This document shows, piece after piece, positions 2,069 through 55,281 of a DNA stretch of 64,000 nucleotides; positions within the stretch are counted from its first letter, which is position 1, and the number at the start of each line of letters is the position of its first letter. This DNA is from an uncultured Candidatus Saccharibacteria bacterium. GTDB taxonomy: Bacteria > Patescibacteriota > Minisyncoccia > Phycocordibacterales > CSBR16-119. The position numbers were made by a program, and so were the translations under genes. The stretch covers positions 21,560 through 85,559 of the forward strand of contig CAZLAD010000002.1 of the NCBI GenBank assembly GCA_964557535.1. Reading direction: 5' to 3'. The notes under the pieces are model-generated. The model was not told where the DNA came from. It saw nothing but the letters and a program-made list of their open reading frames with translations, and ran no database searches.

Positions 2069-2193
2069 CTTCCTATCTTATCAAAAGTTTGCTTTTTAAG
2101 CCCTTTTTGGCTAATATTTGGCAGTATCTTCGAAAAGGTACACATTGAAAACTAAATATTCCCCGGTAGCGCAGCGGTAGCGCAGTTGCCTGT

Positions 2194-2756
2194 GAGAAAT
2201 GTAATGGTATACTTATTTTGTGTCTACCACAAGAAAAGAGACCAGAACATACTCCGATCGTGCAGAATATATGCGAGAAGCAGTTAAACGAAGACGTATA
2301 AAGCTTCGTGTAATGGCTCGTGAATATGCTGGCGGTAAATGCAGAATCTGTGGGTACAATAAATCTTCCCGAGCATTAAATTTCCACCATCTTGATCCAA
2401 AGAAAAAAGACTTTGGTTTGGCGGATGGCGGAATAACCAGATCTTGGGAAAAAACTCGCAAAGAAATAGACAAATGTATATTACTTTGCGCAAATTGTCA
2501 CATGGAAGTGCACGACGGAATTACGCAGCTCCCTTCGGAAACGAAGAGATGAAAAACAAGGTGAATTGTCTGGAAGCCCGAGCTGTAACAACAGCGGGTA
2601 ATCAGCAGCCAAGCCTCAATAATTTTTGAGGAAGGTTCAGAGACTATCCTAAACGGAGTAGGCCGAGAGTTTCGGTCGAAGCGCCTTGCACCTAAATTCC
2701 GATTCGGAACACGGTGATGATATAGTCCATTCCTAGAAGTGATTTTAGGGTAAATG
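2194..2756 (+). ncRNA. Group I self-splicing intron (ORF-containing), inserted between tRNA positions 35/36
   Basis: The catalytic-core conserved elements are all present: P-like caacagc (~2600), Q aatcagcagcc (2610-2620), R gttcagagactat (2636-2648) and S gatatagtcc (2719-2728). The intron ends in G before exon 2. Confidence 0.75.
2220..2552 (+). CDS. HNH homing endonuclease encoded inside the group I intron
   Basis: Carries CRICGYNKSSRALNFHHLDP...CILLCANCHMEVH, the HNH/zinc-finger motif. Lies entirely within the intron, 5' of the ribozyme core. Confidence 0.75.
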   Translation: MSTTRKETRTYSDRAEYMREAVKRRRIKLRVMAREYAGGKCRICGYNKSSRALNFHHLDPKKKDFGLADGGITRSWEKTRKEIDKCILLCANCHMEVHDGITQLPSETKR

Positions 2757-2834
2757 TAAGCAATTGGTCGCAGGTTCGAATCCTGCCCGGGGAGCCAAGT
2801 CGTGCGGAGTTATCCCGCACGAGACGCATCAATA

Positions 2835-2871
2835 TTTGTATCAGAAAAACCGCTTAGAATGAGCGGTTTTT
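2835..2871 (+). terminator. Rho-independent terminator after the tRNA (aaaaaccgct...agcggttttt), preceded by a second hairpin at 2799-2825
   Basis: Perfect 10-bp stem plus a T-run. Confidence 0.6.
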
Positions 2872-2901
2872 CTGTAGCCAATTAAATGATAAAATTAAAG
2901 C

Positions 2902-5900: not shown

Positions 5901-6798
5901 TAAAGAAATTTCTATAAAAGAAAGAATGGAAATACTTTTCGATCAAATACCAGAAAATTGGCCAGGAAAAAAGAACCTCATGATGGATATTAGCCTTTCA
6001 GATATAAAAAATAAAATGCCAGAAGGTTATGATCTGTTCAAATCAGGCATTCAAAATCACGATGACGAGGCTTCAATCTCTCAGATTTATGAATTTATAG
6101 CAAACCATGTTAAGGAACACTATTTAAACAAAAAACATGGACAAGGAGAAGCTGTGGAAACTGATAATAAGGCTTTGATCAAAGCGTTGAAGCAATATTG
6201 GGGTGTACAAGACTTTGATAACTCAATCTTAGCAGTTAGCCATGTAAAATTAGCGGAGTTAAACAAGGGTTCGATCTCAGAGAATAATCTTAATTTAAGT
6301 TTTGTGCCTTCAAAGGGACTGCAAAGAATTTTCAGTGGCGATTTAGGAAGAGCGTGTACGAGTCGAGAAAACGGCAACCTCGCAAAGGGTGAATTTGAAC
6401 CTATCACATCTTATTCAATCATATTAGATAAAGGAACAAAAAACGAAAGGTTTGCCGGATCTTTCCTGGTTATAGAAACGGGGACAGAAGACGGTAAGCC
6501 AGTAATGGTGCTTAGAGCAAACAACCCGCAACAAAATCTGTTTAATATGGTCCACGGTGACTCATTGGTTGCGTCTATTGTTAGTGAAGTAAAGGCGCTT
6601 GCGAAAAGAAGGGGTATAGATAGAGTGGTGGCGCCTCTATCTGGGGGAGCAACTTCAAACAGAACAGAGGTTGCGGAATACTATGACAAGACGTTTTCAA
6701 GTGGTCAGAAAATTGGTCTTAAAAAATCTCCGGAAACAAACTTTAATGGCTATGATATTTGGAATAAGGAGTCAGTGAATGCCGTCACTGTCATTTAG
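2902..6798 (+). CDS. Giant (1298 aa) acidic/lysine-rich hypothetical protein, GTG start, no signal peptide and no recognisable catalytic motifs; cargo of the tRNA-Asn-linked insertion
   Basis: Uninterrupted 3.9-kb ORF in a compact genome. No Walker, HExxH or other motif recognised. Confidence 0.6.
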   Translation: MNFERNLKPNKLDVGSVEDLSENQESKENLNQAHEKIVSVLKVFKPEDISSDEFLDEVVDNLFEDAKKLQLSRGQLLETDEAVYSEMREILISRFKQISQDYYADYKDMKTEQSGRDLCRKARLGLILLDDLSDFEEEFTKRYNTPKNDDPRQLNFDNVVRYLNLDWQNPLKVNEIELLIQNGYLEKMCDFNGTLYGYIEGTPEELLNEMSKSGFAGSARWSDINHALGAVAGSEDQKYSRKAFENLIAGKYIRGIAENINAFENIDLEDLAMVGLDAKDFIKLILDRYGIDDPTIGDKLKDFVKHSQINFFDEELIVKKWLGLKLNKVLEQDSKFFDIRDVEHCKKVIEAGYLGLAIWDNKIFEEVVKNDYDWLLNIARENHQEHLLLRCPGIGNVLKKEDQLVYGKKLISEGKWYVLSSILGNIRYADSHFSSQTFDQDIYDSISSHDFHPHPGSFKNLNEETLEILSERFPDFIEQDPLSITSFEFGENSRLEGYKRYKEFMLEVEALFDIRLSKERLETMNFNFKRLSKLSLDQGLENIRRKASLYKKIESVAISQGHDKEQVFDTFGWMLNDSHSATPIREEVIDELKYVPKSLHETERCLTILNRLTGLDRDKKTRIAMELSMIAGSEFLGAEDVIYERYFRITLPEESRSPTKDEFPARESMVTQIPDFSTEYKEMSEHSQAVWQKLFPWSESLRELEGIQKHAKRREYDPWQTELVPLLKHELGNLSFANPEDGKILVEYVKRFGMKNIPYLYSVFSQVYKSKDVDQIPPHIKGILADDFGINAEELCKKDKKNLGLIFAEMEKMQTRLVSDIRNEDLSLLERVQKSPYLLETIKSIVGNSGHAHGVSTEEALELYRKAVKESPKKFLLPEGYEEVEVSVPQVIFEEEEKSEVIQKEKEKILSNSDLRTLAVGYRDVYKQNKDSDNTTDLSSKRDEIRSFIQSSIDDLNLRLKQEEEKEIKNEKAIFGLKSRMQALEEKKKDFDINFEKSLSKEISIKERMEILFDQIPENWPGKKNLMMDISLSDIKNKMPEGYDLFKSGIQNHDDEASISQIYEFIANHVKEHYLNKKHGQGEAVETDNKALIKALKQYWGVQDFDNSILAVSHVKLAELNKGSISENNLNLSFVPSKGLQRIFSGDLGRACTSRENGNLAKGEFEPITSYSIILDKGTKNERFAGSFLVIETGTEDGKPVMVLRANNPQQNLFNMVHGDSLVASIVSEVKALAKRRGIDRVVAPLSGGATSNRTEVAEYYDKTFSSGQKIGLKKSPETNFNGYDIWNKESVNAVTVI

Positions 6799-6988
6799 AT
6801 TGTAAAATAGATATTTGTTTATCTTTTAGTAAAATTTTCCCTTTAAGATTCCCAAGTAATTCTCGCTTTTCCGAAATACTTCCATCTGCTAAAACGAACT
6901 TAGCATAATTCCGTATATCAACGTCATCAACTTTTACGACTTGGCTTTTACCAGAAACAAGTTTTTGGAATTTCTTGAATCGTGTCAC
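6791..6988 (-). pseudogene. C-terminal remnant (65 aa) of a large serine recombinase, paralog of the intact gene at 48801-50147
   Basis: The translation RFKKFQKLVSGKSQVVKVDDVDIRNYAKFVLADGSISEKRELLGNLKGKILL aligns with the last ~63 aa of the 448-aa recombinase at 48801-50147, at ~80% nt identity. No upstream catalytic domain is present. Confidence 0.75.
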
Positions 6989-7068
6989 TTTTGTAACTTT
7001 TTGATGCGCTCAAGACGCATCAGGAATTCCTGATTTTAGTGCTAAAATAGCCTTACCCTGCAATGAGC

Positions 7069-7101
7069 CAATTGGTTCTAACTCGAGTCGGGGAGCCAAG
7101 T
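7069..7101 (+). repeat. Decayed direct repeat of the tRNA-Asn 3' end (caattggt...cggggagccaagt); candidate attR of the 2798-7101 insertion
   Basis: Blocks of 8 and 13 nt are identical to 2761-2768 and 2788-2800 (T-arm/acceptor/CCA region), in the same order and orientation. Confidence 0.45.
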
Positions 7102-42680: not shown

Positions 42681-42822
42681 GGGCTGGCCTGTTCGGTCTC
42701 GGAAGTTTTAAAACGTTACCCCACAAGGCTTTCCAGGTAACTTTCATTCTACCATTTCGACCCTCTTCGGACAGCTCTAAAACGAGACAAACGAGACACT
42801 TTTTCGCTTCGATTTTTATCTA

Positions 42823-43230
42823 TTGACGAGCATGATAATGAATGATATTATGCCAACAAAATACCCTGAAATGAAAGCACTAAAGCTCTCGTCTGTATGG
42901 GATTGGACCTTGTCGGCCACTCTGTACGTTCTCTTCTTGCTCCTACTCGGTAAGATCGTCGACATCTTCTCACCCGTCACAACCATGTTCTTCGTACTGA
43001 TCGGTACGGGATACGGTTTGATGAGTGGATGGCTCAGAGCGATCATTACCATTTCGGGTATCGCCATGTACATCCTGTCGTGGGTGGCATTGTGGAACTG
43101 GAATTGGAGTCCGAACGAAGCGATGTTGCTATGCGGAGCCGGCATCCTCACCTGGATCGCCGCCGTCTTTTCTCCAGCAGCATCACATATCTTGCCGCTG
43201 ATTTTCGCGGCAAGACAACGTCCCTTGTGA
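42823..43230 (+). CDS. GC-rich 4-TM membrane protein (an alternative minus-strand ORF overlaps it)
   Basis: Hydrophobic helices on the + strand. Terminator hairpin at 43245-43280. Confidence 0.35.
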   Translation: MTSMIMNDIMPTKYPEMKALKLSSVWDWTLSATLYVLFLLLLGKIVDIFSPVTTMFFVLIGTGYGLMSGWLRAIITISGIAMYILSWVALWNWNWSPNEAMLLCGAGILTWIAAVFSPAASHILPLIFAARQRPL

Positions 43231-43505
43231 CGTAGACCACTTATGTGGAACGAAGCCCTTAGCGAAAGCGGGGCTTCTTCTTTTTCTCTAATTAAATCTT
43301 TATCCACACCCCTCATTCGTTGACATTATTCCGTACCGATATACATTTAGTTTATAAGATATTTCATAGATAAATAGTTTCTAAGTAAAGCGTTGTAAGC
43401 ACTTACAGTGACAAGTAAGGGTTTGGCCCAAGCGTGGATAACCAAGAGTGTTGGCTAAAGGCGACAATATCTTAGGTTTTAGGAACTAACGCCTATCTAC
43501 GAAGT

Positions 43506-44816
43506 ATGAAAACTAATATTGAGGTTGTTTATGTTCGCACGGATCTACTTTCTGCTGCGGAATATAATCCACGCACGTGGGACTCAGAAGCCAAGAAGCA
43601 TTTAACAGAGAGTATTAATAAATTTGGTGTTGTTGATCCGCTCATCGTGAACGGTGCAACGAATCGAAAGAATATTGTTATCGGTGGGCACTTTCGTCTT
43701 GAAGTGTTAAAAGAACTTGGGCATGCCGAAGTTCCTGTCGTGTATCTAAACATACCCGACATAAACAAAGAGAAGGAACTAAATATTCGTCTCAATAAAA
43801 ACCAGGGAGAATTTGATCTCGATCTTCTAACATCTTTCGACGAAGGCTTATTAGCCGATATTGGTTTTTCAAGTGAAGAGCTTGATGATATTTTCCTTGA
43901 TGACATTGAAGAAGATGAGTTTGATCTAAAGAAAGCACTTGAGAGACTAGATATACAAAAAATTTCGGTAAAACCAGGAGATGTATACGAGATAGACGGC
44001 TCGCGTCTTATGTGTGGTGACTCGACAATAGAGTCTGACATGAAAAAGCTTGTGGGGAATGAAAAAGCCGACATGGTAATGACAGATCCACCATATATTC
44101 TCGACTACCTAACAAAACCAAACCAAGGAGGTTTTGGCGCAAATCAGAATAGAAAATATCTTGGAACCGACAGCTTGCCTCCAAACTTCACGGAGCTTTG
44201 GATGAGTAATGTTGCCGGGGCAGCCCAAAAGGATTTCTCTATTATCGTTTACGAGAATTGGAAGAATATTAGAACCATCTGGAATGAAATGGAGAAACAT
44301 TGGCGCGTCCGAAATATGATCGTTTGGCATGCCGCCAATAGAAGCCAGGGATATGCCGGCAAACACAAGTTCTTCAACAAGCACGACATCGCGATTGTTG
44401 GTACGACGCCAGGAAAAGATGTATCCAGCGAACAAGAAGATGCTCTTATCGAAAATGAATATGAGACGGCACTATTTGCAATTTCTGGAAGTCCTCATTG
44501 GGAGAAATATGAGAAAGGTAATCCATACTGTCCAACCGATTTCATCTCTCACAATGTAGCAACTGAAAAATCTTCTGGCCAAGGGGTTGTCTTTGGAACA
44601 AAACCAATCGAACTCTTGATTCCGTATATCAAGGTGCTGACCAAGCGTAATCAGTTGGTCCTGGAACCATTTGGCGGAAGCGGATCAACCCTCATCGCCT
44701 CCATTAAGATTAGTCGTCGATGCTTTACCATGGAGAAATCTCCCGTCTATTCTGAAGTCATCCTTACACGGTGGGAAAAATTAACTGGTAAGAAAAGAGT
44801 AAAAATAAATGCATAA
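43506..44816 (+). CDS. ParB-like nuclease domain fused to an N6A/N4C DNA methyltransferase (circularly permuted motifs: DPPY before FGGSG)
   Basis: N-terminal ParB/Srx fold (VDPLIVNG...GGHFRLEVLKELG), then MVMTDPPY (motif IV) and EPFGGSGSTLIAS (motif I). Confidence 0.75.
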   Translation: MKTNIEVVYVRTDLLSAAEYNPRTWDSEAKKHLTESINKFGVVDPLIVNGATNRKNIVIGGHFRLEVLKELGHAEVPVVYLNIPDINKEKELNIRLNKNQGEFDLDLLTSFDEGLLADIGFSSEELDDIFLDDIEEDEFDLKKALERLDIQKISVKPGDVYEIDGSRLMCGDSTIESDMKKLVGNEKADMVMTDPPYILDYLTKPNQGGFGANQNRKYLGTDSLPPNFTELWMSNVAGAAQKDFSIIVYENWKNIRTIWNEMEKHWRVRNMIVWHAANRSQGYAGKHKFFNKHDIAIVGTTPGKDVSSEQEDALIENEYETALFAISGSPHWEKYEKGNPYCPTDFISHNVATEKSSGQGVVFGTKPIELLIPYIKVLTKRNQLVLEPFGGSGSTLIASIKISRRCFTMEKSPVYSEVILTRWEKLTGKKRVKINA

Positions 44817-45264
44817 CAATGATATTAGAAAACAATTTATTGAAACTCTCGAAGAAGTCCCTTTCGTTAAATATGCTGCCAAGAAGGTCGGTATCAATCG
44901 TACGACTATATATCGATGGATGCAGGAAGACCCAAGATTCAGAATTCAAGTAGAAAAGTCTTTGGGTGAGGGCCGTAAATTACTTATCGAAGACGCGGAG
45001 TATCAATTACTAAAAAAGATTAGAAAAGATGGCAACCAAAGAGCCATAGAGTTTTTCCTAAAACATAATAATAAGAAGTATTATCCAAGAAAAACGATGG
45101 AGGTATATCCATTGGCTGAAGACCAGTATCAGATGTCGTTTGAAGAACACGCGGCTATCGAGTTGTGGTCAGAGAAGTTTGTTGAGCTATCTCCTATGTG
45201 GCGACGAATCTTCTCTGACATGGAAAAGAAGCTAGGAAACCCCGACGAAGACCGATCCTTATAA
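44809..45264 (+). CDS. HTH DNA-binding protein (terminase-small-subunit-like or regulator)
   Basis: VGINRTTIYRWMQ helix-turn-helix. Overlaps the upstream gene by 8 nt. Confidence 0.5.
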   Translation: MHNNDIRKQFIETLEEVPFVKYAAKKVGINRTTIYRWMQEDPRFRIQVEKSLGEGRKLLIEDAEYQLLKKIRKDGNQRAIEFFLKHNNKKYYPRKTMEVYPLAEDQYQMSFEEHAAIELWSEKFVELSPMWRRIFSDMEKKLGNPDEDRSL

Positions 45265-45276
45265 GGAGGAAGATGA

Positions 45277-45882
45277 TTAGTCGATTTGCACTAAGGTGTT
45301 GCAAGCCGTATCGTAACCATCACTCTCATTCTTCAAGAATTCACAGAGATTGCCACTATCGAAGTTCGACCAAGCGATCTTTTCATAGGTCGCTTTGTCG
45401 ATTGTATATACCAAGATCACTTTGTTTTCTGCATTCCCATATTTATCTGTCGTGTCGCCGTAGTACCAAACCAAGACATCGTACGCTTCTGGATGAGAAG
45501 AATATATTTCTTGGAATGTTTTGGCGGATAGCTCTCCTGTATTTCGGTATAAGGAATCTTTGTTGTAGAACGAAGAAAGAGAATATTTAACCGTGATCAT
45601 TTTCGTGTCGACAGGACGATCTGGGTCAGATTTCTCTATGTCCATTCCTACATAGGAAGCATGTGCAAGCGGAATGTCTTTAACAATCGCTTTTAGTCTA
45701 TCTTCTGGCGTTAGTGATTGTGCTGGAACATTTGTTGCAACAGTTTGTTCTGTTTTCTTGCCATCACCAGATCCGGCGATGACGAAAAGAAAAATAATAA
45801 AGACTACAATTCCAGTAATTACTGGGTGGCGTTTGATCCAGGACTTGGTTGTCTTAGGATCCATCATTGGGTGTTTATCCAT
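45277..45882 (-). CDS. N-terminally membrane-anchored extracytoplasmic protein, hypothetical
   Basis: TM helix VITGIVVFIIFLFVIAGSG, then a ~160-aa domain. Confidence 0.45.
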   Translation of the reverse strand: MDKHPMMDPKTTKSWIKRHPVITGIVVFIIFLFVIAGSGDGKKTEQTVATNVPAQSLTPEDRLKAIVKDIPLAHASYVGMDIEKSDPDRPVDTKMITVKYSLSSFYNKDSLYRNTGELSAKTFQEIYSSHPEAYDVLVWYYGDTTDKYGNAENKVILVYTIDKATYEKIAWSNFDSGNLCEFLKNESDGYDTACNTLVQID

Positions 45883-46167
45883 ATGTTATTACTAATTAAT
45901 AAATCCCGATGATGGATACAAAAAGCCCACCACGGGTAGGGCCCGAAAGCCCTCATACGAGTTTCCTCGTATGGCCAATCAGACAACCCCATGATGGGTT
46001 CTTTATGTCTGATTGGACTTTTTCACCATGCCCAGTAAGGGGTTTAGGCTACTTTATTTATTCGATTGTTCGACCATAATACCAAATAATAGGCATTACG
46101 CCCACCACCATAGCAGATTCCAGGATTTTGCGAAGGGGGTTACCAACAAGTTTAGATCTAAATTTTT

Positions 46168-48780
46168 TTACTTGATATCTTTTTTAGTTTCCACATTCTT
46201 GATACCCCAAGTTTCAAAAACCTCTCCTGTTATCCTTCTTAGATTTTCATTTTTTGATTTTATTAAATCAGGCATTTTTTTATCTAAGGGGTATTTCGAT
46301 AAGTTAACCCATGGCCACTGGTTCTTTTTAAGAAAACCGATTAATTGTTCTTGGGCGGCTTCATCGGAAGCATTAATCTTATCGACTAGCATGTCCATAA
46401 ATTTAGATGCGTATTCTGAGGGAGGAGGAATTTTTTGGAATCCTTGATTGATAAAATTAGCAATATTATCTGACAAGGCGGCTATATGTTTAGGGATGAT
46501 TCTTTTCCATATCTCTTCGGGTGTGGAAATATTTTGTTGAATTATAAAATTTAGACTCTGAATAAGAACATTAATATCAACTGAATCTTCAATCTTTTTC
46601 AATAGCTCCCCTTCGATCTCGGAAACCTTCCACGAACTATCGTCGGCTTTTGAGACTGCCCAAGTCGTAACGTCTGCATTTAAATCGTATACTTGTTTTA
46701 GAATTTTCTCTTTTAAGATTGTAATTCCGTTAGGTATAAAATATTTCAAAATTTCGAATCTCTTATCTCGTAGATCGTTATTCTCTCCTAACAAACCATC
46801 AGCAAAAGTATTTTCCATACCTTCCATTTCTTTTTGTACCGCAGGTTTATCTAGTTGTGGAAATAGATTTAACATTCTATTTGTTAAATCTGTTGGATTC
46901 TGAGGATAGAAATTCCTGTACCATCTAGTAAGTAGAGAGCTTGTGAAAATTCCAGGCTCAATAATGTTTGCGTTATCAAAATCGTTGGAATTTAGTATAA
47001 AATCAAATTTATTTTTAAAGCCATCGAAGATCGATTGTTCCTCGATAAGATCAATCCAGTGCGTAAAAGAATTAACGATATCAAATTTTTGTGCCAAATT
47101 TACAATAAAGTTGAGGTCTACGTCTTTTAATTTATCTGCAAATATTTTATGAACGGAATACTCTTTGGGAAACTGGGCTAATGCTATCATCAGAGCTTTT
47201 AAGATGCTTCCTCGTGTTTCTTCACCAAGACCTGGTAGTCTAGTCGAGACTACGCCCGCATAGTTAGATAAATTATTATCCCCAGAAGAAGCAAGAACGT
47301 TTTTTATTTGTACTGGATCACCAGTATCAATAATAGAAACAAAATCATCCCCAGATAATCCTCTATGATCACCAAAACTTGCATCTGCCGCCAAGAAAAT
47401 GAATGGTCGTATGTCAGCAATATCTAGACTGAAACCTTTATAGAATCTAGGATCCTCGTAGAGAAATGCCTCTATGAAACTTTTCTGACCCGAAGACATA
47501 TCTGTTCCGTACTTAGTTACTTCTTCATTTATTTTTACAGAATCTTTTTTCTCAACTAGGTACTCTAACTTTAGAAGTATCTCTTGATCATTGACAATTT
47601 TATCAAAAAGAGGCGGGCAAAGTTCTTGTAACATCAGAATACGTACTACGAGGAGGGGTTTATCGAGCATTTCCATAAAGTATTTCTTTTGTATTTCATC
47701 CTGATCACCAGATTTGCTTTGAATGATTTCAAAGGTGAATAATGTAGTTTCAATAAACCTGATAATTTGGCGATAGTTCTTACTGAAATATTTTTTTAAA
47801 TATCCGGCAAAAATAGTTTTATCATCTTCTTTAAGGAATATCTTATCTAGAGCCGAGTCTTTCTCCTTTAGCTTTTTATCAATGAATGAATCGATTTCCT
47901 TTTCTAATGGGAGAGGTAGGCGCCAATAAATATTAAATATTTTCTTTAAAAATCTTCTACCCTCCTCAAGTTGTTCAGGGCTGTTCGAATCCGGAAGAAT
48001 ATCTTTACCTAAATATCTTTCTAGAACGGTATGATCACCTGTTACCACGAATGTAATATCTTTTTTATCGAAGAACGTTCTTAGGTTATCTAGAACAGTA
48101 TGAGCAATTTCTGGAGTTACCCTATCAAGATCATCAACAAAGATAACAGGCTTCTTTTTATCTGATTTAAACGCATCAATAATTTTTCGCAAAAGCTCAT
48201 CAAATTGATCAATTGTAGAAATGGCATGATTACTTTTTTGCACAGTAATCATATTGCCCACAATACCAAGAAAGATTGGTATTCCCATTAACATTATCAA
48301 TGACTTCCAGTTTTGGATGAAAAGTTTGAAAGGATCAGAACATTGCATAACCATGTATACAATAAAGATCGCACCTGCAATCAAGAATAGATTTCCCCAA
48401 TGGACATTTGTCTCCGACGTGTCAAAATCTAGTGCTTTAAGGTCTTCTTTGACACCCGTATCAGTCAAATCACCAGCTAGTGTTTTCAAAAAATTTCTAA
48501 GGAAAGACGTACTATCGCTATCAGAAGCAAATTTCCAAGGATTAATTCTAAATATTTTAAATTTTTCTTCTTTAGAATCGGTCTGACTAACCAAATCTTC
48601 TTCTAATTGGTCCAAAAAGTGTGTTTTACCCTCGCCCCATTTCCCAGAAATACCAAAAATGAAGGATTCGCTATGCTTTCCGTGATTATCCTTTATTGTG
48701 TTGGCTACTTGTTTTACGAAGTATTTTTTACTATCCATAGTCTCGAATTTAGCATAAAAATCTTCATATTTATAGGGCAT
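46168..48780 (-). CDS. KAP-family P-loop NTPase (870 aa) with two TM helices inserted in the NTPase domain
   Basis: Walker A GISGKWGEGKTHF. The hydrophobic helices LFLIAGAIFIVYMVM and LIMLMGIPIFLGIVGNMI sit between Walker A and Walker B (VIFVDDLDR). A long alpha-helical C-terminal region follows. This is the defining KAP architecture. Confidence 0.7.
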   Translation of the reverse strand: MPYKYEDFYAKFETMDSKKYFVKQVANTIKDNHGKHSESFIFGISGKWGEGKTHFLDQLEEDLVSQTDSKEEKFKIFRINPWKFASDSDSTSFLRNFLKTLAGDLTDTGVKEDLKALDFDTSETNVHWGNLFLIAGAIFIVYMVMQCSDPFKLFIQNWKSLIMLMGIPIFLGIVGNMITVQKSNHAISTIDQFDELLRKIIDAFKSDKKKPVIFVDDLDRVTPEIAHTVLDNLRTFFDKKDITFVVTGDHTVLERYLGKDILPDSNSPEQLEEGRRFLKKIFNIYWRLPLPLEKEIDSFIDKKLKEKDSALDKIFLKEDDKTIFAGYLKKYFSKNYRQIIRFIETTLFTFEIIQSKSGDQDEIQKKYFMEMLDKPLLVVRILMLQELCPPLFDKIVNDQEILLKLEYLVEKKDSVKINEEVTKYGTDMSSGQKSFIEAFLYEDPRFYKGFSLDIADIRPFIFLAADASFGDHRGLSGDDFVSIIDTGDPVQIKNVLASSGDNNLSNYAGVVSTRLPGLGEETRGSILKALMIALAQFPKEYSVHKIFADKLKDVDLNFIVNLAQKFDIVNSFTHWIDLIEEQSIFDGFKNKFDFILNSNDFDNANIIEPGIFTSSLLTRWYRNFYPQNPTDLTNRMLNLFPQLDKPAVQKEMEGMENTFADGLLGENNDLRDKRFEILKYFIPNGITILKEKILKQVYDLNADVTTWAVSKADDSSWKVSEIEGELLKKIEDSVDINVLIQSLNFIIQQNISTPEEIWKRIIPKHIAALSDNIANFINQGFQKIPPPSEYASKFMDMLVDKINASDEAAQEQLIGFLKKNQWPWVNLSKYPLDKKMPDLIKSKNENLRRITGEVFETWGIKNVETKKDIK

Positions 48781-48800
48781 TCAATCCTTGACCTCCAAAA

Positions 48801-50147
48801 GTGTTTGCGTCATCCATAGAGTATATGGAAAAAGCGATTACAGGGCTTATAAGCCCACCAGTGTTACCCAGTATAGAGAAAGTCAGGTATTGTCTCTACG
48901 CTCGTAAATCCAGTGAGGATTCCAGCGAAAAACAGGCCCTTTCGGTGGATTCCCAAGTTAAGGAAATGTTGGCTATTGCCGAGCGAGAAAACTTAGAAAT
49001 CGTGGATATTCGGCGTGAGTCTCATTCGGCCAAGGATTCTGGTCAAAGACCTGTTTTTAACGAATTGGTTCGGGATCTCCGTAGTGGAAGATACACGGGT
49101 ATTTTAACCTGGGCCCCGGATAGACTTTCGAGAAATGCAGGAGATTTGGGCTCGCTCGTTGACCTGATGGATCAGAAACTTCTTCATGAGATAAGAACCT
49201 ACGGCCAGTACTTTAGAAATTCTCCGAATGAGAAATTTCTTTTGATGATTCTATGTTCACAAGCGAAACTTGAGAATGATAATAAAAGTATCAATGTTAA
49301 ACGTGGTCTTCGTACACGATGTGAAATGGGACTGTGGCCTGCGCCAGCTCCAATGGGATATTTAAATGAAATGAAGACGGACAGAAAAGGATATGTCTAT
49401 GTTGATCCAGAAAGAGGACATGTTATTAAAAAAATGTTTGAGAAAGTTGCCTTTGAAAAATGGAGCGGTAGAAAACTTTATCACTGGTTAAAGTTTGAGC
49501 TAAATTTTAAGACACCAAACGGCAATAAAGGCTTAACCTTGAGTTGTATTTATCTGATTCTTAGCAATCACTTTTATTATGGTACTTTTGAATTCCCAAG
49601 AAAAAGTGGTGTATGGTACAAAGGCATACACGAACCTATTATCACGAAAGAATTATTTGATCAGGTTCAAGAGCAGATGAGAAGCCAGTTCGTGAAATCA
49701 GAAACAAAAGAGTTTGCTTTCACGAAGCTTATGGCCTGCGGGCTGTGCGGTTCTGGCGTAACGGCTGATGAGAAATTTAAAAAGCAGAAAAATGGAAATA
49801 TACACAGACATGTTTATTATGGGTGTACTAGGGTACGCGACCAAAATTGTAAATGTGCATATATTAATGAGCCAGATCTTATTAAAGAATTTGAGTGCCT
49901 AATGGACGAAATTGATCTCAATGAGTTGGGGATGAAAGAAAAGATTAAACTTGAAATTGAACGATTCAAAAAGTTCCAGAAACTCGTTTCTGGTAAAAGC
50001 CAAATCATCAAAATTGATGAGGTTGATATACGAAATTACGCAAAGTTTGTTTTGGCTGAAGGAGCGCTGATTGAGAAACGTGAATTGCTTGGGAATTTAA
50101 AAGGAAAGATTATATTAGGAGATAAGAAAATCTCTTTAGTTTCCTAA
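48801..50147 (+). CDS. Large serine recombinase (resolvase catalytic domain + recombinase domain + zinc ribbon)
   Basis: YARKSSEDSSEKQALSVDSQ (catalytic Ser), DRLSRN, and CGLCGSGV...YYGCTRVRDQNCKC zinc ribbon. 448 aa. Confidence 0.8.
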   Translation: MFASSIEYMEKAITGLISPPVLPSIEKVRYCLYARKSSEDSSEKQALSVDSQVKEMLAIAERENLEIVDIRRESHSAKDSGQRPVFNELVRDLRSGRYTGILTWAPDRLSRNAGDLGSLVDLMDQKLLHEIRTYGQYFRNSPNEKFLLMILCSQAKLENDNKSINVKRGLRTRCEMGLWPAPAPMGYLNEMKTDRKGYVYVDPERGHVIKKMFEKVAFEKWSGRKLYHWLKFELNFKTPNGNKGLTLSCIYLILSNHFYYGTFEFPRKSGVWYKGIHEPIITKELFDQVQEQMRSQFVKSETKEFAFTKLMACGLCGSGVTADEKFKKQKNGNIHRHVYYGCTRVRDQNCKCAYINEPDLIKEFECLMDEIDLNELGMKEKIKLEIERFKKFQKLVSGKSQIIKIDEVDIRNYAKFVLAEGALIEKRELLGNLKGKIILGDKKISLVS

Positions 50148-50954
50148 TTCTTTTTTAAGAACAAAAATTTTCTTGGTAATCGTGAATTGAATAGTATTTC
50201 CTAGATCTTCGTACTTGAGCTTTTCTTTTAATTCGGGGTTAAATCTTTCGCGGATGTATTGGTTGAGCTGTTCAAGTTTCGACATGTCGCCGCCGAGCTC
50301 TTGTTCAAGTCGTCGAATAGAGTTAAACCGATAGTGGATAGGATGAAATTCATGAATGTTTCCGAAACCAGCCTTTTTAACATTTTCAATAAATTCATCT
50401 TCTCTAAAAAAGTATCTCTCGGTCATGAGCATGTCGAAGCCGCTCAATTCGTCTTTCTTGCGGATAATGTCTTGGAACAAGGTTTGAGTTTCATTGTCGA
50501 GCATGATGTCCCAGATGACAATCTTGCCAGTTGGCTTTAGTAACTTGTGGAACTCTTGTAGCACCTCGAGTTGCAAGGCCTTGGAAACCTCGTGGAGCCC
50601 CATTTTGAGTGCTATGGTATCGAAAAAAGATTCTTTGAATGGAGCTCCGGGCAAAGATGCGACAGAAAATCTTTCGGCTGGAAGATTTGGCAAATTTTCT
50701 CTCGCTCGCTGTACCTGTACATCACTTTCATCGACGAGATAGACGACTGCGTTCGGATTTCTCTCTAATACCTCTTTACCGATAGCTCCATATCCGCCCA
50801 TGGCGTCCAAAACGATCTCACCATCTTTCGGATCAATAGCATCAATAAACGCCTTTTTATCCGCAGGGTCAATCGAGTGGATGTACTCATAGGAAACTAT
50901 TCTATTGTCGAATCCTTGTTTCATAATTTTACAGATAATCTCCTCCGCTTTCAT
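50136..50954 (-). CDS. Class I SAM-dependent methyltransferase
   Basis: VLDAMGGYGAIG (motif I), YLVDESD (acidic post-I), KPTGKIVIWD. Confidence 0.65.
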   Translation of the reverse strand: MKAEEIICKIMKQGFDNRIVSYEYIHSIDPADKKAFIDAIDPKDGEIVLDAMGGYGAIGKEVLERNPNAVVYLVDESDVQVQRARENLPNLPAERFSVASLPGAPFKESFFDTIALKMGLHEVSKALQLEVLQEFHKLLKPTGKIVIWDIMLDNETQTLFQDIIRKKDELSGFDMLMTERYFFREDEFIENVKKAGFGNIHEFHPIHYRFNSIRRLEQELGGDMSKLEQLNQYIRERFNPELKEKLKYEDLGNTIQFTITKKIFVLKKELGN

Positions 50955-51750
50955 TTTTGAATTCCTTTCTGAATTGTTTCCATCCGATAAGATTGCCCAT
51001 TCTTTTTCTTGTGTTTAGTGCTTGAGCGACATGCTCGAATGGACTCCAGTGTCCAGACGAAGAAAGCCTCTCACATAATTTTAGATCGCTATTGATATCA
51101 GAAGTTTTTCCATCAAAAAGAGAGTAACTCACTCGTGCGCATCGAGCCGCACTAATCTTTTTTCTCATCTCTAGATCAAGGGTATGTTCAGTGTCTAAAA
51201 TAAAAGGAAGATGCCATTCATCAGATTGCAATATGTTTGGTTTCTGATCCTGTAAGAGTAAATTCATCCTTTCTGCGACATATCTGATTTCAGGCTGAGC
51301 GGCTTCGTTTGATCTTAGAGAAATAAAGTTGGACCACTCTGTCGCAGTTATAATCACATCAACCATGAGCCAAGGTTCTATGAGTCGATTCACCACCTCC
51401 TTATGCATTCCTAGTTTTTCTCCCAGCCAATGAAAGAAAACAGGTACATACCTAGACCAAAGCCATATCTTTTTTGCCAAGAATAGTTTTAGACCTCTAA
51501 AGGGCTTGCCAGATTGCATGCCAGCCCTGTTCTCACCGAAATATACTGGCAAGAAAGGATCATTAAGAACATATTTTCTAATTCTTTTTGCTGGAATAGC
51601 CCTACTCGAGGCAGAGTTTCTTGAAAGCGTTCGATGACTAATGATATGTCCCCAAAGAAATTTGGGGATCTTGAGAACAAAAGTTGCCAGACGCTTTTGG
51701 GTATCTGTTGATTCAGAATAAGTAATTAATGATACTTTAATTTTATTCAT
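50929..51750 (-). CDS. ThyX-like (flavin-dependent thymidylate synthase fold) protein with altered motif order and a degenerate signature
   Basis: N-terminal FVLKIPKFLWGHIISHRTLSRNSASSRA aligns with the ThyX segment [28 protein letters not shown]. The first Arg of the RHR signature motif is replaced by Ser. C-terminal AARCARVSYSLFDG...GHWSPFEHV resembles the ThyX N-terminal segment AARVSFD...GHETPFEH. Confidence 0.5.
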   Translation of the reverse strand: MNKIKVSLITYSESTDTQKRLATFVLKIPKFLWGHIISHRTLSRNSASSRAIPAKRIRKYVLNDPFLPVYFGENRAGMQSGKPFRGLKLFLAKKIWLWSRYVPVFFHWLGEKLGMHKEVVNRLIEPWLMVDVIITATEWSNFISLRSNEAAQPEIRYVAERMNLLLQDQKPNILQSDEWHLPFILDTEHTLDLEMRKKISAARCARVSYSLFDGKTSDINSDLKLCERLSSSGHWSPFEHVAQALNTRKRMGNLIGWKQFRKEFKNESGGDYL

Positions 51751-52879
51751 GTTTGTCTAGTATATCAGTTACCGTATCAGGGACGTCGATAAACCCAAGC
51801 TGTCCAATTTCGTTGTTTGTCAGAGCTTCTAAAGTTGATCCGTACAATAGGCCAATAGTACGTTCGATTTCTTCTGGGGTTGATTCGTATCGATTACCTT
51901 TGAATGTTATTGGAAACCCGTTGTTTATGAGTACCAAATTATCCCAAATAACATCTCCATGGATTTCAGAAGATTTAATACTGTTTTTTCTTATGTATAT
52001 TGTCGGGAACTCGCGATCAGCCGATGACATACTTATAAGGTAGAGCTTATAATCTAAAAGATCTTTAATTTCTTGAAGCTGTTCCTCGTTTAGAATATTT
52101 GAACCCGTCACACCAACCACAACATTAATATTATTATCTCGAATCAGGTTCACTAATTCAGATTTATCATGGTGAGCAATATCGTACCCTAATGCAAAAT
52201 AACCTTTCTCTTTAAATATCGAAAGCGTATTACTACCCATAGGTCCTAGTCCGACAACGAGAATTCTTGGTTCAGCAATGGAATACTGCTTGAACGCATC
52301 TACCATTCTATTGCACCCCAGCTCCGCGATGAGAGGACTTTCTTTTATAAGTTTGACCGAAGCACGGGCGACATTGAATATTGGGAAATGAACTTGTGAT
52401 TTTTCAAGCTTTCTAAAACCAGATGAGGTTTGTTCGATGCCGATGACAGGAATCTCTTTGGATATAGAATCAAATTTATCATTTACGATTCTAAGCAACT
52501 CTCCACCATCATCTAAAATAATAACTTTTGAAGGATTCTTGATCCGAGACAAGAATAAATCGAGTTGCTTGGTGCAATTTTCAGCATGTTCGATATCGAA
52601 TGAGACAGATTGATCGAAGTTTGGTTGGACAACATTAAATCCAGCGTCAGATAATTCTTTCAATACTTCATTACTGGTTGAATAGATCTTGCCGAAGATA
52701 TGAATGTTCTCTTTTGGAACACCAAACTCTACCAATAACTCAAACATTTTTGCTTGCGACTCGAGTATGTGCTGACAGGCGAGAATATAGACATTATCAA
52801 ATCCACCCTTTTTTGAATCAAAATAACGGGAGATCTCCTCCAGTAGAGAATACTTATAAGCTGTTTCCATGACTTCCAT
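51743..52879 (-). CDS. S-adenosyl-L-homocysteine hydrolase-like protein (divergent)
   Basis: ILACQHILESQAKMFELLVEFG...IHIFGKIYSTSNEV matches GCLHMTxQTAVLIETLxxLGA...CNIFSTQDHAA. VIILDDGGEL matches ILDDGGDL. NAD-binding VVGLGPMGS matches AGYGDVGKG. Confidence 0.55.
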   Translation of the reverse strand: MEVMETAYKYSLLEEISRYFDSKKGGFDNVYILACQHILESQAKMFELLVEFGVPKENIHIFGKIYSTSNEVLKELSDAGFNVVQPNFDQSVSFDIEHAENCTKQLDLFLSRIKNPSKVIILDDGGELLRIVNDKFDSISKEIPVIGIEQTSSGFRKLEKSQVHFPIFNVARASVKLIKESPLIAELGCNRMVDAFKQYSIAEPRILVVGLGPMGSNTLSIFKEKGYFALGYDIAHHDKSELVNLIRDNNINVVVGVTGSNILNEEQLQEIKDLLDYKLYLISMSSADREFPTIYIRKNSIKSSEIHGDVIWDNLVLINNGFPITFKGNRYESTPEEIERTIGLLYGSTLEALTNNEIGQLGFIDVPDTVTDILDKHE

Positions 52880-52950
52880 TATACTAAATCCTTAGGTGTT
52901 TTAACCTAGGGACTTTCAACGCGTCTCGAGCGCGATAACCTAGCTCAAGT

Positions 52951-53024
52951 TGGCTGCGGAACCTGGACTCGAACCAAGATACCCTCCTCCAGAGGGAGGT
53001 GTCCTACCATTAGACGATTCCGCA
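52951..53024 (-). tRNA. tRNA-Gln(CUG), CCA encoded
   Basis: Cloverleaf UGCGGAA-UC-GUCUAAUGGUAGGAC-A-CCUCC-CUCUGGA-GGAGG-GUAU-CUUGG-UUCGAGU-CCAGG-UUCCGCA-G-CCA, similar to E. coli tRNA-Gln2. Confidence 0.75.
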
Positions 53025-54708: not shown

Positions 54709-54727
54709 ATTAAATTTATAAAAAAAT

Positions 54728-54843
54728 AAAATGTAACAATTTCCAGCTATAGCATGAAATTGTTACATTTTATTTTCAGGTCGGTTTGGATGTTTAATCT
54801 AAATGTAACATTAACATGCTATAGCTACTTAATGTTATATTTT
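54728..54843. repeat. Pair of related palindromic elements: E1 54728-54771 (16-bp perfect inverted repeat aaaatgtaacaatttc/gaaattgttacatttt, loop cagctatagcatg) and E2 54801-54843 (shorter stem, loop the reverse complement of E1's loop)
   Basis: Seen directly. Located between convergent genes. Confidence 0.55.
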
Positions 54844-54854
54844 TTATTTCAATA

Positions 54855-55277: not shown

Positions 55278-55281
55278 AAAA

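What the first reader, a model, noticed from the sequence alone, without database searches (positions are those of the whole stretch)
43300..52950. ~9.5-kb putative mobile/defence island next to tRNA-Gln
A contiguous block encodes functions typical of integrative elements and defence islands: a ParB-nuclease/DNA-methylase fusion, an HTH protein, a membrane-anchored extracytoplasmic protein, a KAP P-loop NTPase, a large serine recombinase, and the MTase/ThyX-like/SAHH-like operon. It ends at the 3' end of a tRNA-Gln gene. At the left edge (43431-43458), gtggataaccaagagtgttggct partially repeats cgataacctagctcaagttggct, which lies immediately 3' of the tRNA. The left edge also carries a perfect DnaA-box-like TTATCCACA at 43301-43309. 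The recombinase has a diverged paralog fragment at 6.8 kb, indicating more than one element of this family in the genome.
Basis: partly seen in the sequence, partly recalled or inferred. Interest (0 to 1): 0.75.

Follow-up and report, generated by a model that had tools for sequence, protein, structure and literature searches.

The report
Mobile defence island in tRNA-Gln
A 10.27-kb block in this Saccharibacteria genome is a genuine mobile island, inserted by a serine recombinase into the end of a tRNA-Gln gene and absent from otherwise identical strains; it belongs to a large, apparently undescribed family of phage-like, defence-carrying elements in ultra-small (CPR) bacteria.

Summary
The gene content and the tRNA-Gln adjacency are confirmed, and the mobile/defence-island reading holds.

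- **Empty site.** Three independent assemblies join tRNA-Gln directly to the HAD gene. One has 100% identical flanks. The window's insert is exactly 10,270 bp, bounded by a 5-nt core (CAGCC) at 42682-42686 and 52952-52956.
- **Family.** All 80 fetched loci carry a recombinase 62-77% identical to this one. The shared parts recur in about half to two-thirds of loci with enough flank: a conserved ~125-nt left-end unit, ParB-methylase, a terminase-small-subunit-like HTH (often plus a large terminase and an S24 repressor), the orphan LOOT RNA, the recombinase, variable cargo, a conserved ~42-nt motif, and tRNA-Gln.
- **Cargo.** Relatives carry CBASS, Thoeris-type TIR, Hachiman, reverse transcriptase and restriction-modification genes. 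Here the cargo is a KAP NTPase and a methyltransferase/permuted-ThyX/SAHH-fold operon.
- **Second copy.** A decayed copy sits at 2.8-7.1 kb, next to an intron-split tRNA-Asn.

Integration is shown. Recombinase catalysis and phage-satellite-like transfer are inferred.

The parts
42682..42686 (-). attL crossover core (CAGCC in tRNA orientation; GGCTG on + strand), 1 nt from the HAD start codon
   Evidence: Empty-site contig L118 aligns at 100% to window 54341-52952 and to 42686-41978, with a 5-nt overlap. The sequence was read.
42682..42808 (-). Conserved left-end unit (LEU). It has TGTCNC..TTTGTCNC direct repeats, a CCGA.GAGGGTCGAAATG block, and an end that resembles a tRNA 3' end (...CCGAACAGGCCAGCC). 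It is the proposed P-arm side of attP.
   Evidence: nhmmer E = 1.5e-29. Homologous units lie upstream of the recombinase, on the tRNA strand, in 21 of 33 loci with at least 8 kb upstream. Conservation stops right after CCAGC. RNAalifold finds no RNA consensus structure.
42823..43230 (+). Probable small multi-pass membrane protein (135 aa) followed by a terminator-like hairpin at about 43250-43285. The overlapping 166-aa minus-strand ORF 42816-43316 is probably spurious.
   Evidence: Translations; hairpin read. There are no family hits and no homologues in related loci. This assignment is uncertain.
43506..44816 (+). ParB_N-domain / N6_N4 DNA methyltransferase fusion, a backbone gene of the element
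   Evidence: Pfam PF02195 + PF01555; phrog_498 E = 6e-76. A homologue lies upstream on the recombinase strand in 42 of 80 loci.
44809..45264 (+). HTH protein with weak small-terminase-subunit similarity, a backbone gene overlapping the methylase stop
   Evidence: HTH_Tnp_1_2 at E = 1e-5, 25.9 bits, below Pfam's 27.9-bit cutoff. PHROG terminase small subunit hits at E = 1e-5 and 4e-5. Homologues are present in 38 loci. In at least 22 of them a large-terminase-like gene follows directly (phrog_38 E = 1.5e-73).
45277..45882 (-). 201-aa protein with an N-terminal hydrophobic segment. It occupies the slot for small, variable membrane proteins between the packaging genes and LOOT.
   Evidence: No family hits. 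Weak homologues sit in the same slot in L036 and L054. The slot is occupied by unrelated small minus-strand ORFs in many loci.
45938..46050 (-). LOOT RNA (Rfam RF03000), followed by a terminator-like hairpin at 45926-45940
   Evidence: 79.8 bits against a gathering score of 46.4. It is present in 51 of 74 related loci with at least 300 nt upstream of the recombinase. In 38 of those it lies within 400 nt of the recombinase gene and diverges from it. Terminator.
46168..48780 (-). KAP-family P-loop NTPase (870 aa), a candidate defence cargo inserted between LOOT and the recombinase
   Evidence: PF07693 E = 4e-32. The N-terminal domain resembles PifA (E = 4e-20) and QatA (E = 6e-15). The same insertion position is seen in L104. 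Local GC is 0.34-0.36.
48801..50147 (+). Large serine recombinase (440 aa counted from the ATG at 48825)
   Evidence: Resolvase + Recombinase + Zn_ribbon_recom; CcrB-like; phrog_95 integrase E = 1.5e-56. There are more than 8000 homologues, and the top 120 are 72-82% identical across CPR lineages.
50136..50954 (-). Class-I SAM-dependent methyltransferase (cargo)
   Evidence: Methyltransf_25/31/11. It is absent from the related element L111, which keeps the other two operon genes.
50929..51750 (-). Circularly permuted ThyX-like protein (cargo)
   Evidence: Pfam Thy1 matches residues 22-171 to profile positions 59-190. TIGR02170 matches residues 198-243 to profile positions 15-60. Residues 195-272 align to T. 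maritima ThyX residues 29-103. phrog_85 E = 3e-60. Phage relatives are 32-46% identical.
51743..52879 (-). SAHH-fold protein (cargo) with invariant DDG and GxGPxG motifs
   Evidence: AlphaFold pLDDT 91.6, pTM 0.89. Foldseek top hits are all S-adenosylhomocysteine hydrolases, TM about 0.7 at 14-20% identity. There are 346 homologues; the few named by their sources are CPR lineages (most are unnamed). Three are fused to a Thy1 domain.
52911..52952 (-). Conserved right-end motif directly 3' of the tRNA (CAACTTGAGCTAGGTTATCGCGCTCGAGACGCGTTGAAAG), the proposed P'-arm side of attP
   Evidence: nhmmer E = 4e-15 in the window. The motif lies downstream of the recombinase, on the tRNA strand, in 23 of 43 loci with at least 3 kb downstream. 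A hairpin is not supported by covariation.
52951..53024 (-). tRNA-Gln(CTG). The attR crossover core CAGCC is at 52952-52956, inside its 3' end.
   Evidence: ARAGORN and Rfam. The junction was defined against the empty site.
2160..7097 (+). Second, decayed element of the same family, in the opposite orientation. In order:
- tRNA-Asn(GTT) exons 2160-2193 and 2757-2797, split by a 563-nt group I intron with an HNH ORF
- end motif 2796-2836
- a 1298-aa cargo ORF, 2902-6798
- the last ~61 codons of a recombinase gene, 6991-6809 (-)
- left-end unit, 6975-7097
   Evidence: A 13-nt exact repeat, CGGGGAGCCAAGT, joins the tRNA-Asn 3' end and the left-end unit (read).

Best explanation
Window 42682-52956 is one discrete integrative element of 10,270 bp in a Saccharibacteria chromosome.

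**Integration.**
- *Inferred:* its own large serine recombinase joined an element site (attP) to a chromosomal site (attB).
  - attP would be the end of the conserved left-end unit, ...CAGGCCAGCC, followed by the ~42-nt motif AACTTGAGCTAGGTTATCGCG....
  - attB is the last bases of tRNA-Gln, ...CCGCAGCC, followed by the HAD start, CATG....
- *Shown:* the crossover lies within the 5-nt core CAGCC. The tRNA stays intact, now with an encoded CCA. HAD is left behind the left-end unit.

**Family.** The element belongs to a CPR-wide family with this backbone:
1. left-end unit
2. variable cargo region 1
3. (S24/CI-like repressor)
4. ParB-methylase
5. small-terminase-like HTH
6. (large terminase)
7. 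a small membrane protein
8. LOOT RNA
9. recombinase
10. variable cargo region 2
11. end motif
12. tRNA-Gln, occasionally tRNA-Asn

**This copy.** It lacks the repressor and the large terminase. It carries a KAP NTPase (a candidate abortive-infection or defence NTPase) between LOOT and the recombinase. It also carries a methyltransferase / permuted-ThyX / SAHH-fold operon between the recombinase and the tRNA.

**What is shown.** Precise presence/absence, the ends, family membership, the LOOT linkage, and defence cargo in relatives.

**What is inferred.**
- That this recombinase catalyses the event.
- That the family spreads as a phage-satellite-like element, packaged by its own terminase proteins into a helper phage's capsids.
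- That the KAP NTPase and the methylase act in defence.
- That the ThyX/SAHH pair modifies a nucleoside or nucleotide.
For: **Empty site.** L118 is 100% identical to both flanks and L117 is 98.8% and 100% identical. Both join window 52952 to window 42686 with a 5-nt overlap. The nearest species-level relative, L001, also lacks the block.

**Ends.**
- The left-end unit was found by nhmmer in the window (E = 1.5e-29). It lies upstream of the recombinase, on the tRNA strand, in 21 of 33 loci with at least 8 kb upstream.
- Its conservation stops exactly at the core.
- The end motif is present next to tRNA-Gln.
- In loci with both ends, the island is 9.4-17.4 kb.

**tRNA target.**
- 23 of the 33 tRNA genes in 0.9 Mb of recombinase loci are tRNA-Gln.
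- 20 of 43 loci with at least 3 kb downstream have tRNA-Gln on the opposite strand.

**Backbone.** ParB-methylase is present in 42 loci and the HTH in 38 of the 80 loci, always in the same order and strand. The large terminase matches phrog_38 at E = 1.5e-73. An S24 repressor is also present.

**LOOT RNA.** It is found in 51 of 74 loci. In 38 it is within 400 nt of the recombinase and divergent from it.

**Mosaicism.**
- L029: recombinase 75% identical to the window's, methylase 27%.
- L104: recombinase 63%, methylase 66%.

**Cargo swapping among relatives.**
- CBASS SMODS + SAVED (L097)
- ThsB-TIR (L033)
- Hachiman (L114)
- reverse transcriptase (L121)
- HsdM, Dcm and N6_N4 methylases

**Same layout elsewhere.** L111 has tRNA-Gln, motif, SAHH-like, ThyX-like, recombinase, HTH, methylase, LOOT and left-end unit in the same order.
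Against: - No circular or excised junction was observed, so current activity of this copy is not shown.
- This copy lacks the large terminase and the S24 repressor found in many relatives, so it may be mobilisable only by recombination, or only in trans.
- No replication gene and no capsid, portal or tail gene was found in the annotated members. Helper dependence is therefore conjecture. Only 3 recombinase relatives are in IMG/VR.
- The HTH-to-small-terminase link is weak (E about 1e-5).
- The KAP NTPase matches only the N-terminal domain of PifA/QatA, far below the family cutoffs.
- The SAHH-like/ThyX-like pair lies just outside the left-end unit in L114, so it is not always element cargo.
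- Gene maps of the related loci rest on my own simple ORF calling and clustering.
Confidence: 0.8

Rival explanations
1. The family is a true phage satellite. On infection by a helper phage the element excises, and its own TerS/TerL-type proteins package it into helper capsids. The window's copy would be a crippled derivative that has lost TerL and the repressor.
For: - The layout is a miniature phage: an S24/CI-like repressor divergent from a small ORF, then ParB-methylase, a TerS-like HTH and TerL (phrog_38 E = 1.5e-73), then an integrase.
- Some members carry an HNH endonuclease next to the packaging genes.
- Size is 9-17 kb.
- No capsid, portal or tail hits appear among the annotated genes.
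- The cargo hot spots hold defence systems, as in P4 and PICI satellites.
Against: - No replication module or origin was identified.
- No helper phage is known.
- Only 3 of the relatives are in IMG/VR.
- TerL is absent from the window, from the short ParB-methylase/HTH/recombinase loci, and from L111.
- The TerS assignment is weak (E about 1e-5).
- Nothing was tested experimentally.
Confidence: 0.35
2. The locus is a decayed prophage remnant that no longer moves. The presence/absence polymorphism reflects an old insertion plus later deletion, not ongoing recombination.
For: - Genes are missing here relative to fuller family members (no TerL, no repressor).
- A clearly decayed copy exists at 2.8-7.1 kb.
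- No circular junction was seen.
Against: - The empty site is exact to the base at the 5-nt core, with 100% identical flanks. Random deletion would not produce this.
- The recombinase ORF is full length with all three domains.
- The same compact gene set with conserved ends recurs in dozens of divergent genomes. That argues for selection on a functional element rather than parallel decay.
Confidence: 0.12
3. The recombinase, LOOT and tRNA-Gln form a host-resident, integron-like capture platform. It accumulates cassettes on both sides and is not itself a mobile unit.
For: - The recombinase is far more conserved (62-82%) than its neighbours (26-66%) across CPR.
- Cargo varies on both sides.
- Copies of the pseudo-tRNA end plus motif, which look like attP, separate blocks in several loci such as L045, L095 and L113. 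This is what accretion of recombinase-less cassettes would leave.
- The SAHH/ThyX pair is always next to an att-type site, but sits inside or outside the element in different genomes.
Against: - In the empty-site strains the entire 10.27 kb is absent as one unit, including the recombinase, LOOT and both end sequences.
- The closest relative, L001, lacks recombinase, motif and end unit altogether.
Confidence: 0.1

Closest known systems
[quoted passage not shown]
   Same: A compact chromosomal island that uses a large serine recombinase as its integrase. It is phage-related, has no full structural gene set, and is linked to anti-phage function (PMC9410903, abstract, for the satellite life cycle; the recombinase type is from my own knowledge).
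   Different: - PLEs encode their own replication initiator and integrate into Vibrio repeats, not a tRNA (my own knowledge).
- No ParB-methylase, TerL or LOOT-like RNA is known in PLEs (my own knowledge).
- Helper dependence is demonstrated for PLE and only conjectured here.
PICIs/SaPIs and other satellites detected by SatelliteFinder (PMC10085698)
   Same: - An integrase at one end.
- A repressor with a divergent switch in many family members.
- A small-terminase-type gene.
- Defence cargo.
- Size of about 10-15 kb.
   Different: - PICIs use tyrosine integrases and carry primase/replication modules and capsid-size redirection genes (my own knowledge).
- None of these was found here.
- Many members of this family carry a full TerL-like gene.
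Tycheposons of Prochlorococcus (bioRxiv 10.1101/2020.12.28.424599)
   Same: - Found in streamlined genomes.
- Site-specific insertion at tRNA genes.
- Partial-tRNA-like repeats at island ends.
- Serial integration that pushes older elements inward.
- Degenerate remnants with fragmented integrases.
- PICI-like and cargo-carrying forms that share modules.
   Different: - Tycheposons are defined by a lineage-specific tyrosine recombinase (910 of 937 elements) and replication hallmark genes.
- Here the integrase is a large serine recombinase, the shared core is only 5 nt, and no replication genes were found.
SCCmec and the CcrA/CcrB recombinases
   Same: The best NCBIfam match of the recombinase is CcrB (E = 3e-29, far below cutoff). 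SCC elements are recombinase-bounded cargo islands inserted at the 3' end of a conserved gene (my own knowledge).
   Different: - The target is rlmH, not a tRNA.
- SCC uses a pair of recombinases.
- SCC has no phage packaging genes.
- Identity is low.
LOOT RNA motif (Rfam RF03000; Weinberg et al. 2017, PMC5737381; Rfam 14, PMC7779021)
   Same: The RNA at 45938-46050 is a clear member (79.8 bits).
   Different: In the texts I could read, LOOT is only listed as a metagenome-derived RNA and has no assigned function or context (PMC7779021, PMC7657543). The 2017 supplement, which may describe its neighbours, was not available.

Membership tests
Large serine recombinase integrative element | Recombinase with an N-terminal resolvase catalytic domain, a recombinase domain and a zinc-ribbon domain | tested here: met
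   PF00239 E = 1.3e-18 (profile positions 3-143 of 145), PF07508 E = 1.5e-13, PF13408 E = 1.2e-6. The sequence YARKSSED near the N-terminus fits the catalytic-serine region (read).
Large serine recombinase integrative element | A very short crossover core instead of long direct repeats, with conserved element-side arms flanking it | tested here: met
   attB, attL and attR share only a 5-nt core, CAGCC. The element-side arms (left-end unit and motif) are conserved across loci.
Large serine recombinase integrative element | The recombinase catalyses attP x attB recombination | not testable with these tools
   This needs a biochemical or in-vivo assay.
tRNA-targeting genomic island | Presence/absence polymorphism with a precise junction in near-identical genomes, and the tRNA kept intact | tested here: met
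   L117, L118 and L119 compared with the window. tRNA-Gln is called in both states.
Phage satellite (PICI / PLE / P4-like / cfPICI) | An integrase plus packaging-hijack gene(s), without a full structural gene set | tested here: inconclusive
   The window has the integrase and a weak TerS-like HTH (E about 1e-5) but no TerL. Relatives have TerL (phrog_38 E = 1.5e-73). No capsid, portal or tail hits appear in the genes scanned, but only a sample of loci was annotated.
Phage satellite (PICI / PLE / P4-like / cfPICI) | Its own replication module (primase, Rep or helicase plus an origin) | tested here: not met
   No such domain was found in the eight window genes or in the annotated backbone genes of relatives.
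Phage satellite (PICI / PLE / P4-like / cfPICI) | Helper-phage-dependent induction and encapsidation | not testable with these tools
   This needs virome or particle data, or experiments.
Tycheposon | A lineage-specific tyrosine recombinase and shared replication hallmark genes | tested here: not met
   The integrase is a serine recombinase and there are no replication genes. The definition is taken from bioRxiv 10.1101/2020.12.28.424599.
Defence island | Clustering of recognised anti-phage systems | tested here: inconclusive
   - **Window:** only a KAP NTPase with a PifA/QatA-like N-terminal domain and Type II/orphan methylase hits. There is no complete known system.
- **Family:** CBASS, ThsB-TIR, Hachiman, reverse transcriptase and restriction-modification methylases.
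Qat defence system | QatA together with QatB, QatC and QatD | tested here: not met
   Only a partial QatA-like N-terminal match: NF041923 scores 60 bits against a cutoff of 600. No QatB, QatC or QatD hits.
LOOT RNA (RF03000) | A covariance-model score above Rfam's gathering threshold | tested here: met
   79.8 bits against 46.4, with a full-length match to positions 1-121.

The most novel reading that the evidence does not exclude
The orphan LOOT RNA is a dedicated non-coding component of a CPR-wide family of recombinase-borne, phage-satellite-like defence islands. It may work with or regulate the large serine recombinase, for example by controlling its expression or directionality, or by timing induction. 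That would be an RNA partner for a recombinase class not known to have one, and these would be the first satellites described for CPR bacteria.
Probability: 0.25. Interest if true: 0.8.

Novelty: new variant of a known kind. Interest (0 to 1): 0.6.

Why it matters
CPR/Patescibacteria have tiny genomes, and their mobile elements are barely characterised. This result matters in five ways.

1. It gives a base-exact attB/attL/attR set for a recombinase family conserved at 62-82% across CPR lineages. That is a ready candidate for a site-specific integration tool in bacteria that are only now becoming genetically tractable.
2. It places the function-less LOOT RNA in a defined genetic context, divergent from and tightly linked to a large serine recombinase. 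Its role is now testable.
3. It identifies a portable platform that shuttles CBASS, Thoeris-like, Hachiman, reverse-transcriptase and restriction-modification genes among ultra-small bacteria.
4. It raises the testable possibility that CPR bacteria host phage satellites with their own terminase.
5. It flags a CPR-restricted gene pair, and in some genomes a fusion, of a permuted ThyX and an SAHH-fold enzyme. Its chemistry is unknown.

Tried and rejected
It is at chance level and is not found by the motif profile.
- **DnaA-box nonamer as an origin signal.** It occurs three times in 64 kb.
- **The ~42-nt motif as an RNA hairpin or terminator.** RNAalifold predicts no pairs. Two hand-drawn stems show no covariation beyond shuffles: 116/500 and 72/500 shuffles reach the observed pairing.
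- **The left-end unit as a structured RNA.** There is no consensus structure and no Rfam hit at E <= 1.
- **An outward promoter (TGnTAnAAT) in the left-end unit.** It is present in only about half of the aligned copies (read), and the generic promoter scan was uninformative (28 sites found against 29 expected).
- **LOOT as a bridge-RNA-like guide complementary to the att site.** Duplex energies against attR on both strands give a mean z of about 0 in 15 loci. This was a crude test.
- **The MTase/ThyX/SAHH operon as a separate unit.** I first thought so because recombinase homology to the relic stops at 50135 and none of the 80 metagenome loci has the operon. The empty site and L111 overturned this.
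- **IMG/VR search for complete phages with this recombinase.** It returned only 3 fragments.
- **Literature searches for a description of the family.** Nothing was found.
- **Exact look-ups of the recombinase (448-aa call) and the LOG protein.** Neither is on record.

Full report
**Organism and observation**

The window comes from a Saccharibacteria (TM7, CPR/Patescibacteria) genome. The protein next to the tRNA is 91% and 83% identical to homologues in a Patescibacteria MAG and a Saccharibacteria MAG.

The tRNA-Gln(CTG) gene is at 52951-53024 on the minus strand, with its 3' end facing the block.
- ParB_N + N6_N4 methylase, 43506-44816
- an HTH protein, 44809-45264
- a 201-aa protein with an N-terminal hydrophobic segment, 45277-45882
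- a KAP NTPase, 46168-48780
- a large serine recombinase, 48801-50147
- a SAM methyltransferase, 50136-50954
- a ThyX-like protein, 50929-51750
- an SAHH-like protein, 51743-52879

The SAHH-like call was checked by structure. The AlphaFold model has pLDDT 91.6, and the 50 best PDB matches are all S-adenosylhomocysteine hydrolases, with TM about 0.7 at 14-20% identity.

The recombinase fragment near 6.8 kb is real: 6809-6991, 77.6% nucleotide identity to the last 183 nt of the recombinase gene.

**What does not hold**

- The proposed boundary repeat is no better than chance. Its local alignment score is 15 against a null of 13.4 +/- 2.0, and 22.6% of random windows match or exceed it.
- TTATCCACA occurs three times in the window counting both strands.

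**The decisive result: an empty site**

1. A search with the flanking HAD protein returned a 100%-identical protein with a longer gene call.
2. Its contigs come from three different sequencing runs (L117, L118, L119). They show CTP synthase, GrpB, EamA, LOG, tRNA-Gln and HAD in direct succession.
3. L118 is 100% identical to window 54341-52952 and to window 42686-41978, with a 5-nt overlap.
4. L117 is 98.8% identical over 7.9 kb on one flank and 100% identical over 4.1 kb on the other.

The three junctions, written in tRNA orientation, are:
- attB: ...GGTTCCGCAGCC|CATGTCTAAAATC
- attR: ...GGTTCCGCAGCC|AACTTGAGCTAGGTTATCGCG
- attL: ...CCGAACAGGCCAGCC|CATGTCTAAAATC

The insert is 10,270 bp, with the core CAGCC at 42682-42686 and 52952-52956. 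The nearest species-level relative, L001, also lacks the block.

**The element belongs to a large family**

The recombinase has more than 8000 homologues. The best 120 are 72-82% identical. Where a source names them, they come from Parcubacteria, Pacebacteria, WS5 and other Patescibacteria.

I fetched 80 metagenome loci with a 62-77% identical recombinase. Features that recur among them:
- **Backbone genes.** 42 loci have a ParB-methylase and 38 an HTH homologue upstream, on the same strand and in the same order.
- **Large terminase.** In at least 22 loci the HTH is followed by a ~495-aa protein that matches large terminase (phrog_38 E = 1.5e-73; Terminase_6C).
- **Repressor.** Many loci have an S24/CI-like repressor divergent from the methylase operon.
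- **The window's HTH** gives weak small-terminase hits (E about 1e-5).
- **tRNA target.** Of the 33 tRNA genes in the 0.9 Mb of these loci, 23 are tRNA-Gln. 20 of 43 loci with at least 3 kb downstream have tRNA-Gln on the opposite strand, downstream of the recombinase.

**Conserved ends**

- *Right end.* Directly 3' of the tRNA lies a conserved ~42-nt motif (window 52911-52952). It is found downstream of the recombinase in 23 of 43 loci with at least 3 kb downstream.
- *Left end.* Upstream of the recombinase, on the tRNA strand, lies a ~125-nt left-end unit. It has TGTCNC repeats and an end that resembles a tRNA 3' end. In the window it is at 42682-42808 (E = 1.5e-29), and it is present in 21 of 33 loci with at least 8 kb upstream.
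- Conservation in the left-end unit stops right after CCAGC, where flanks become unrelated. That is exactly where the empty site puts the junction.
- Neither end shows RNA-type covariation. I read them as the two arms of attP.
- Copies in which the left-end unit and the motif are contiguous (L027, L055, L063, L070, L113) look like intact attP-type junctions. These are expected where related elements sit in tandem.

**LOOT RNA**

- Rfam finds a LOOT RNA (RF03000) at 45938-46050 on the minus strand (79.8 bits against a gathering score of 46.4). A terminator-like hairpin follows it.
- A covariance model built from eight hits finds one LOOT per locus in 51 of 74 loci that have at least 300 nt upstream of the recombinase.
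- In 38 of those it lies within 400 nt of the recombinase gene and diverges from it.
- In loci where methylase, HTH and recombinase form one operon, it lies upstream of the methylase.
- In the window and in L104, a KAP NTPase gene is inserted between LOOT and the recombinase.
- In the papers I could read, LOOT is only a metagenome-derived RNA with no assigned function (PMC7779021, PMC7657543). The 2017 supplement was not available.
- A crude test for complementarity between LOOT and the att region was negative.

**Cargo**

Both variable regions carry defence genes in relatives:
- CBASS SMODS + SAVED (L097)
- two ThsB-type TIR proteins (L033)
- Hachiman HamA + helicase (L114)
- an AAA_21/SMC protein (L111)
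- a reverse transcriptase (L121, which holds the closest recombinase at 82%)
- HsdM, Dcm and N6_N4 methylases

In the window the candidates are weaker. The KAP NTPase matches only the N-terminal domain of PifA (E = 4e-20) and QatA (E = 6e-15), and there are no QatB-D partners.

The SAHH-like protein has 346 homologues. The few that sources name are from CPR lineages, and three are fused to a Thy1 domain. The ThyX-like protein is circularly permuted relative to T. maritima ThyX and has phage relatives.
- *Inside the element.* The pair sits between tRNA-Gln and the recombinase in the window and in L111.
- *After a pseudo-tRNA end plus motif.* This is the arrangement in L113.
- *Outside the element.* In L114 the pair lies just outside the left-end unit.

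The pair is therefore linked to these att sites but is not always inside the element. Its chemistry is unknown. The invariant DDG and GxGPxG motifs fit a nucleoside-binding NAD enzyme, which is inference.

**Second element**

At 2.8-7.1 kb lies a decayed copy in the opposite orientation:
- *tRNA-Asn.* ARAGORN misses a tRNA-Asn(GTT) here because a 563-nt group I intron with an HNH ORF splits its anticodon loop. Splicing 2160-2193 to 2757-2797 gives a canonical tRNA-Asn.
- *Cargo and remnants.* The end motif (2796-2836) follows. Then come a 1298-aa ORF with no Pfam hit, the recombinase relic, and a left-end unit at 6975-7097.

**Mechanism and limits**

*Shown:*
- a precise, site-specific insertion at the tRNA-Gln 3' end
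- conserved ends
- a full-length recombinase
- family-wide linkage of the methylase, the HTH, (TerL), LOOT, the recombinase and tRNA-Gln
- mosaic evolution: in L029 the recombinase is 75% identical to the window's and the methylase 27%, whereas in L104 they are 63% and 66%

*Inferred:*
- that this recombinase performs the reaction
- that transfer is phage-satellite-like
- that the cargo acts in defence

*Against the satellite model:*
- No replication genes and no helper phage are known.
- There are few IMG/VR relatives.
- This copy has no TerL.

I found no paper describing the family. The closest analogues are PLEs, PICIs and tycheposons. The element fails the defining features of each: it has no replication module and no tyrosine recombinase.

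Noticed in passing
window 2160-2797 (+): A tRNA-Asn(GTT) gene is split in its anticodon loop by a 563-nt group I intron (2194-2756). The intron carries a 110-aa HNH endonuclease ORF (2220-2552). ARAGORN misses the gene, but splicing the two exons gives a canonical 75-nt tRNA-Asn.
   Followed up: yes
window 2796-7097: A decayed second element of the same family: end motif, a 1298-aa ORF with no Pfam hit, the last ~61 codons of a recombinase gene, and a left-end unit. The left-end unit shares a 13-nt exact repeat (CGGGGAGCCAAGT) with the tRNA-Asn 3' end. The function of the 1298-aa protein is unknown.
   Followed up: partly
window 50929-51750 (-) and 51743-52879 (-); P0178, P0201, P0208: The permuted ThyX-like and SAHH-fold proteins form a conserved pair. 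Its source-named homologues are all from CPR lineages. In three database proteins of about 645 aa the two are fused, which implies one shared pathway of unknown chemistry.
   Followed up: partly
window 42823-43230 (+) versus 42816-43316 (-): Two long ORFs overlap on opposite strands. The plus-strand one reads like a multi-pass membrane protein and ends just before a terminator-like hairpin (about 43250-43285). The 166-aa minus-strand ORF is therefore probably not a gene.
   Followed up: partly
L024/L116 (Logan SRR12487045 contig): The 13.4-kb contig that carries this same island ends inside the right-end motif, 30 nt short of the tRNA. That could reflect a branch in the assembly graph at attR, meaning a mixed population, or it could be coincidence.
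   Followed up: no
window 53842-55812 versus L001/L002: The EamA transporter, a 140-aa ORF and GrpB, which lie between LOG and CTP synthase, are absent from the two nearest species-level relatives. Those carry other small genes there. This is another small variable spot outside the island.
   Followed up: no
L121 (Logan SRR1027651): The closest recombinase relative (82%) sits in an element whose cargo is a reverse transcriptase (RVT_1), a tRNA_anti-like OB-fold protein and a 901-aa helicase. This shows rapid cargo turnover at the same slots.
   Followed up: no
L032 18645-18757: In this locus the end motif follows a tRNA-Asn(GTT) rather than tRNA-Gln. Together with the window's relic, this suggests a sub-lineage of the family that targets tRNA-Asn.
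   Followed up: partly
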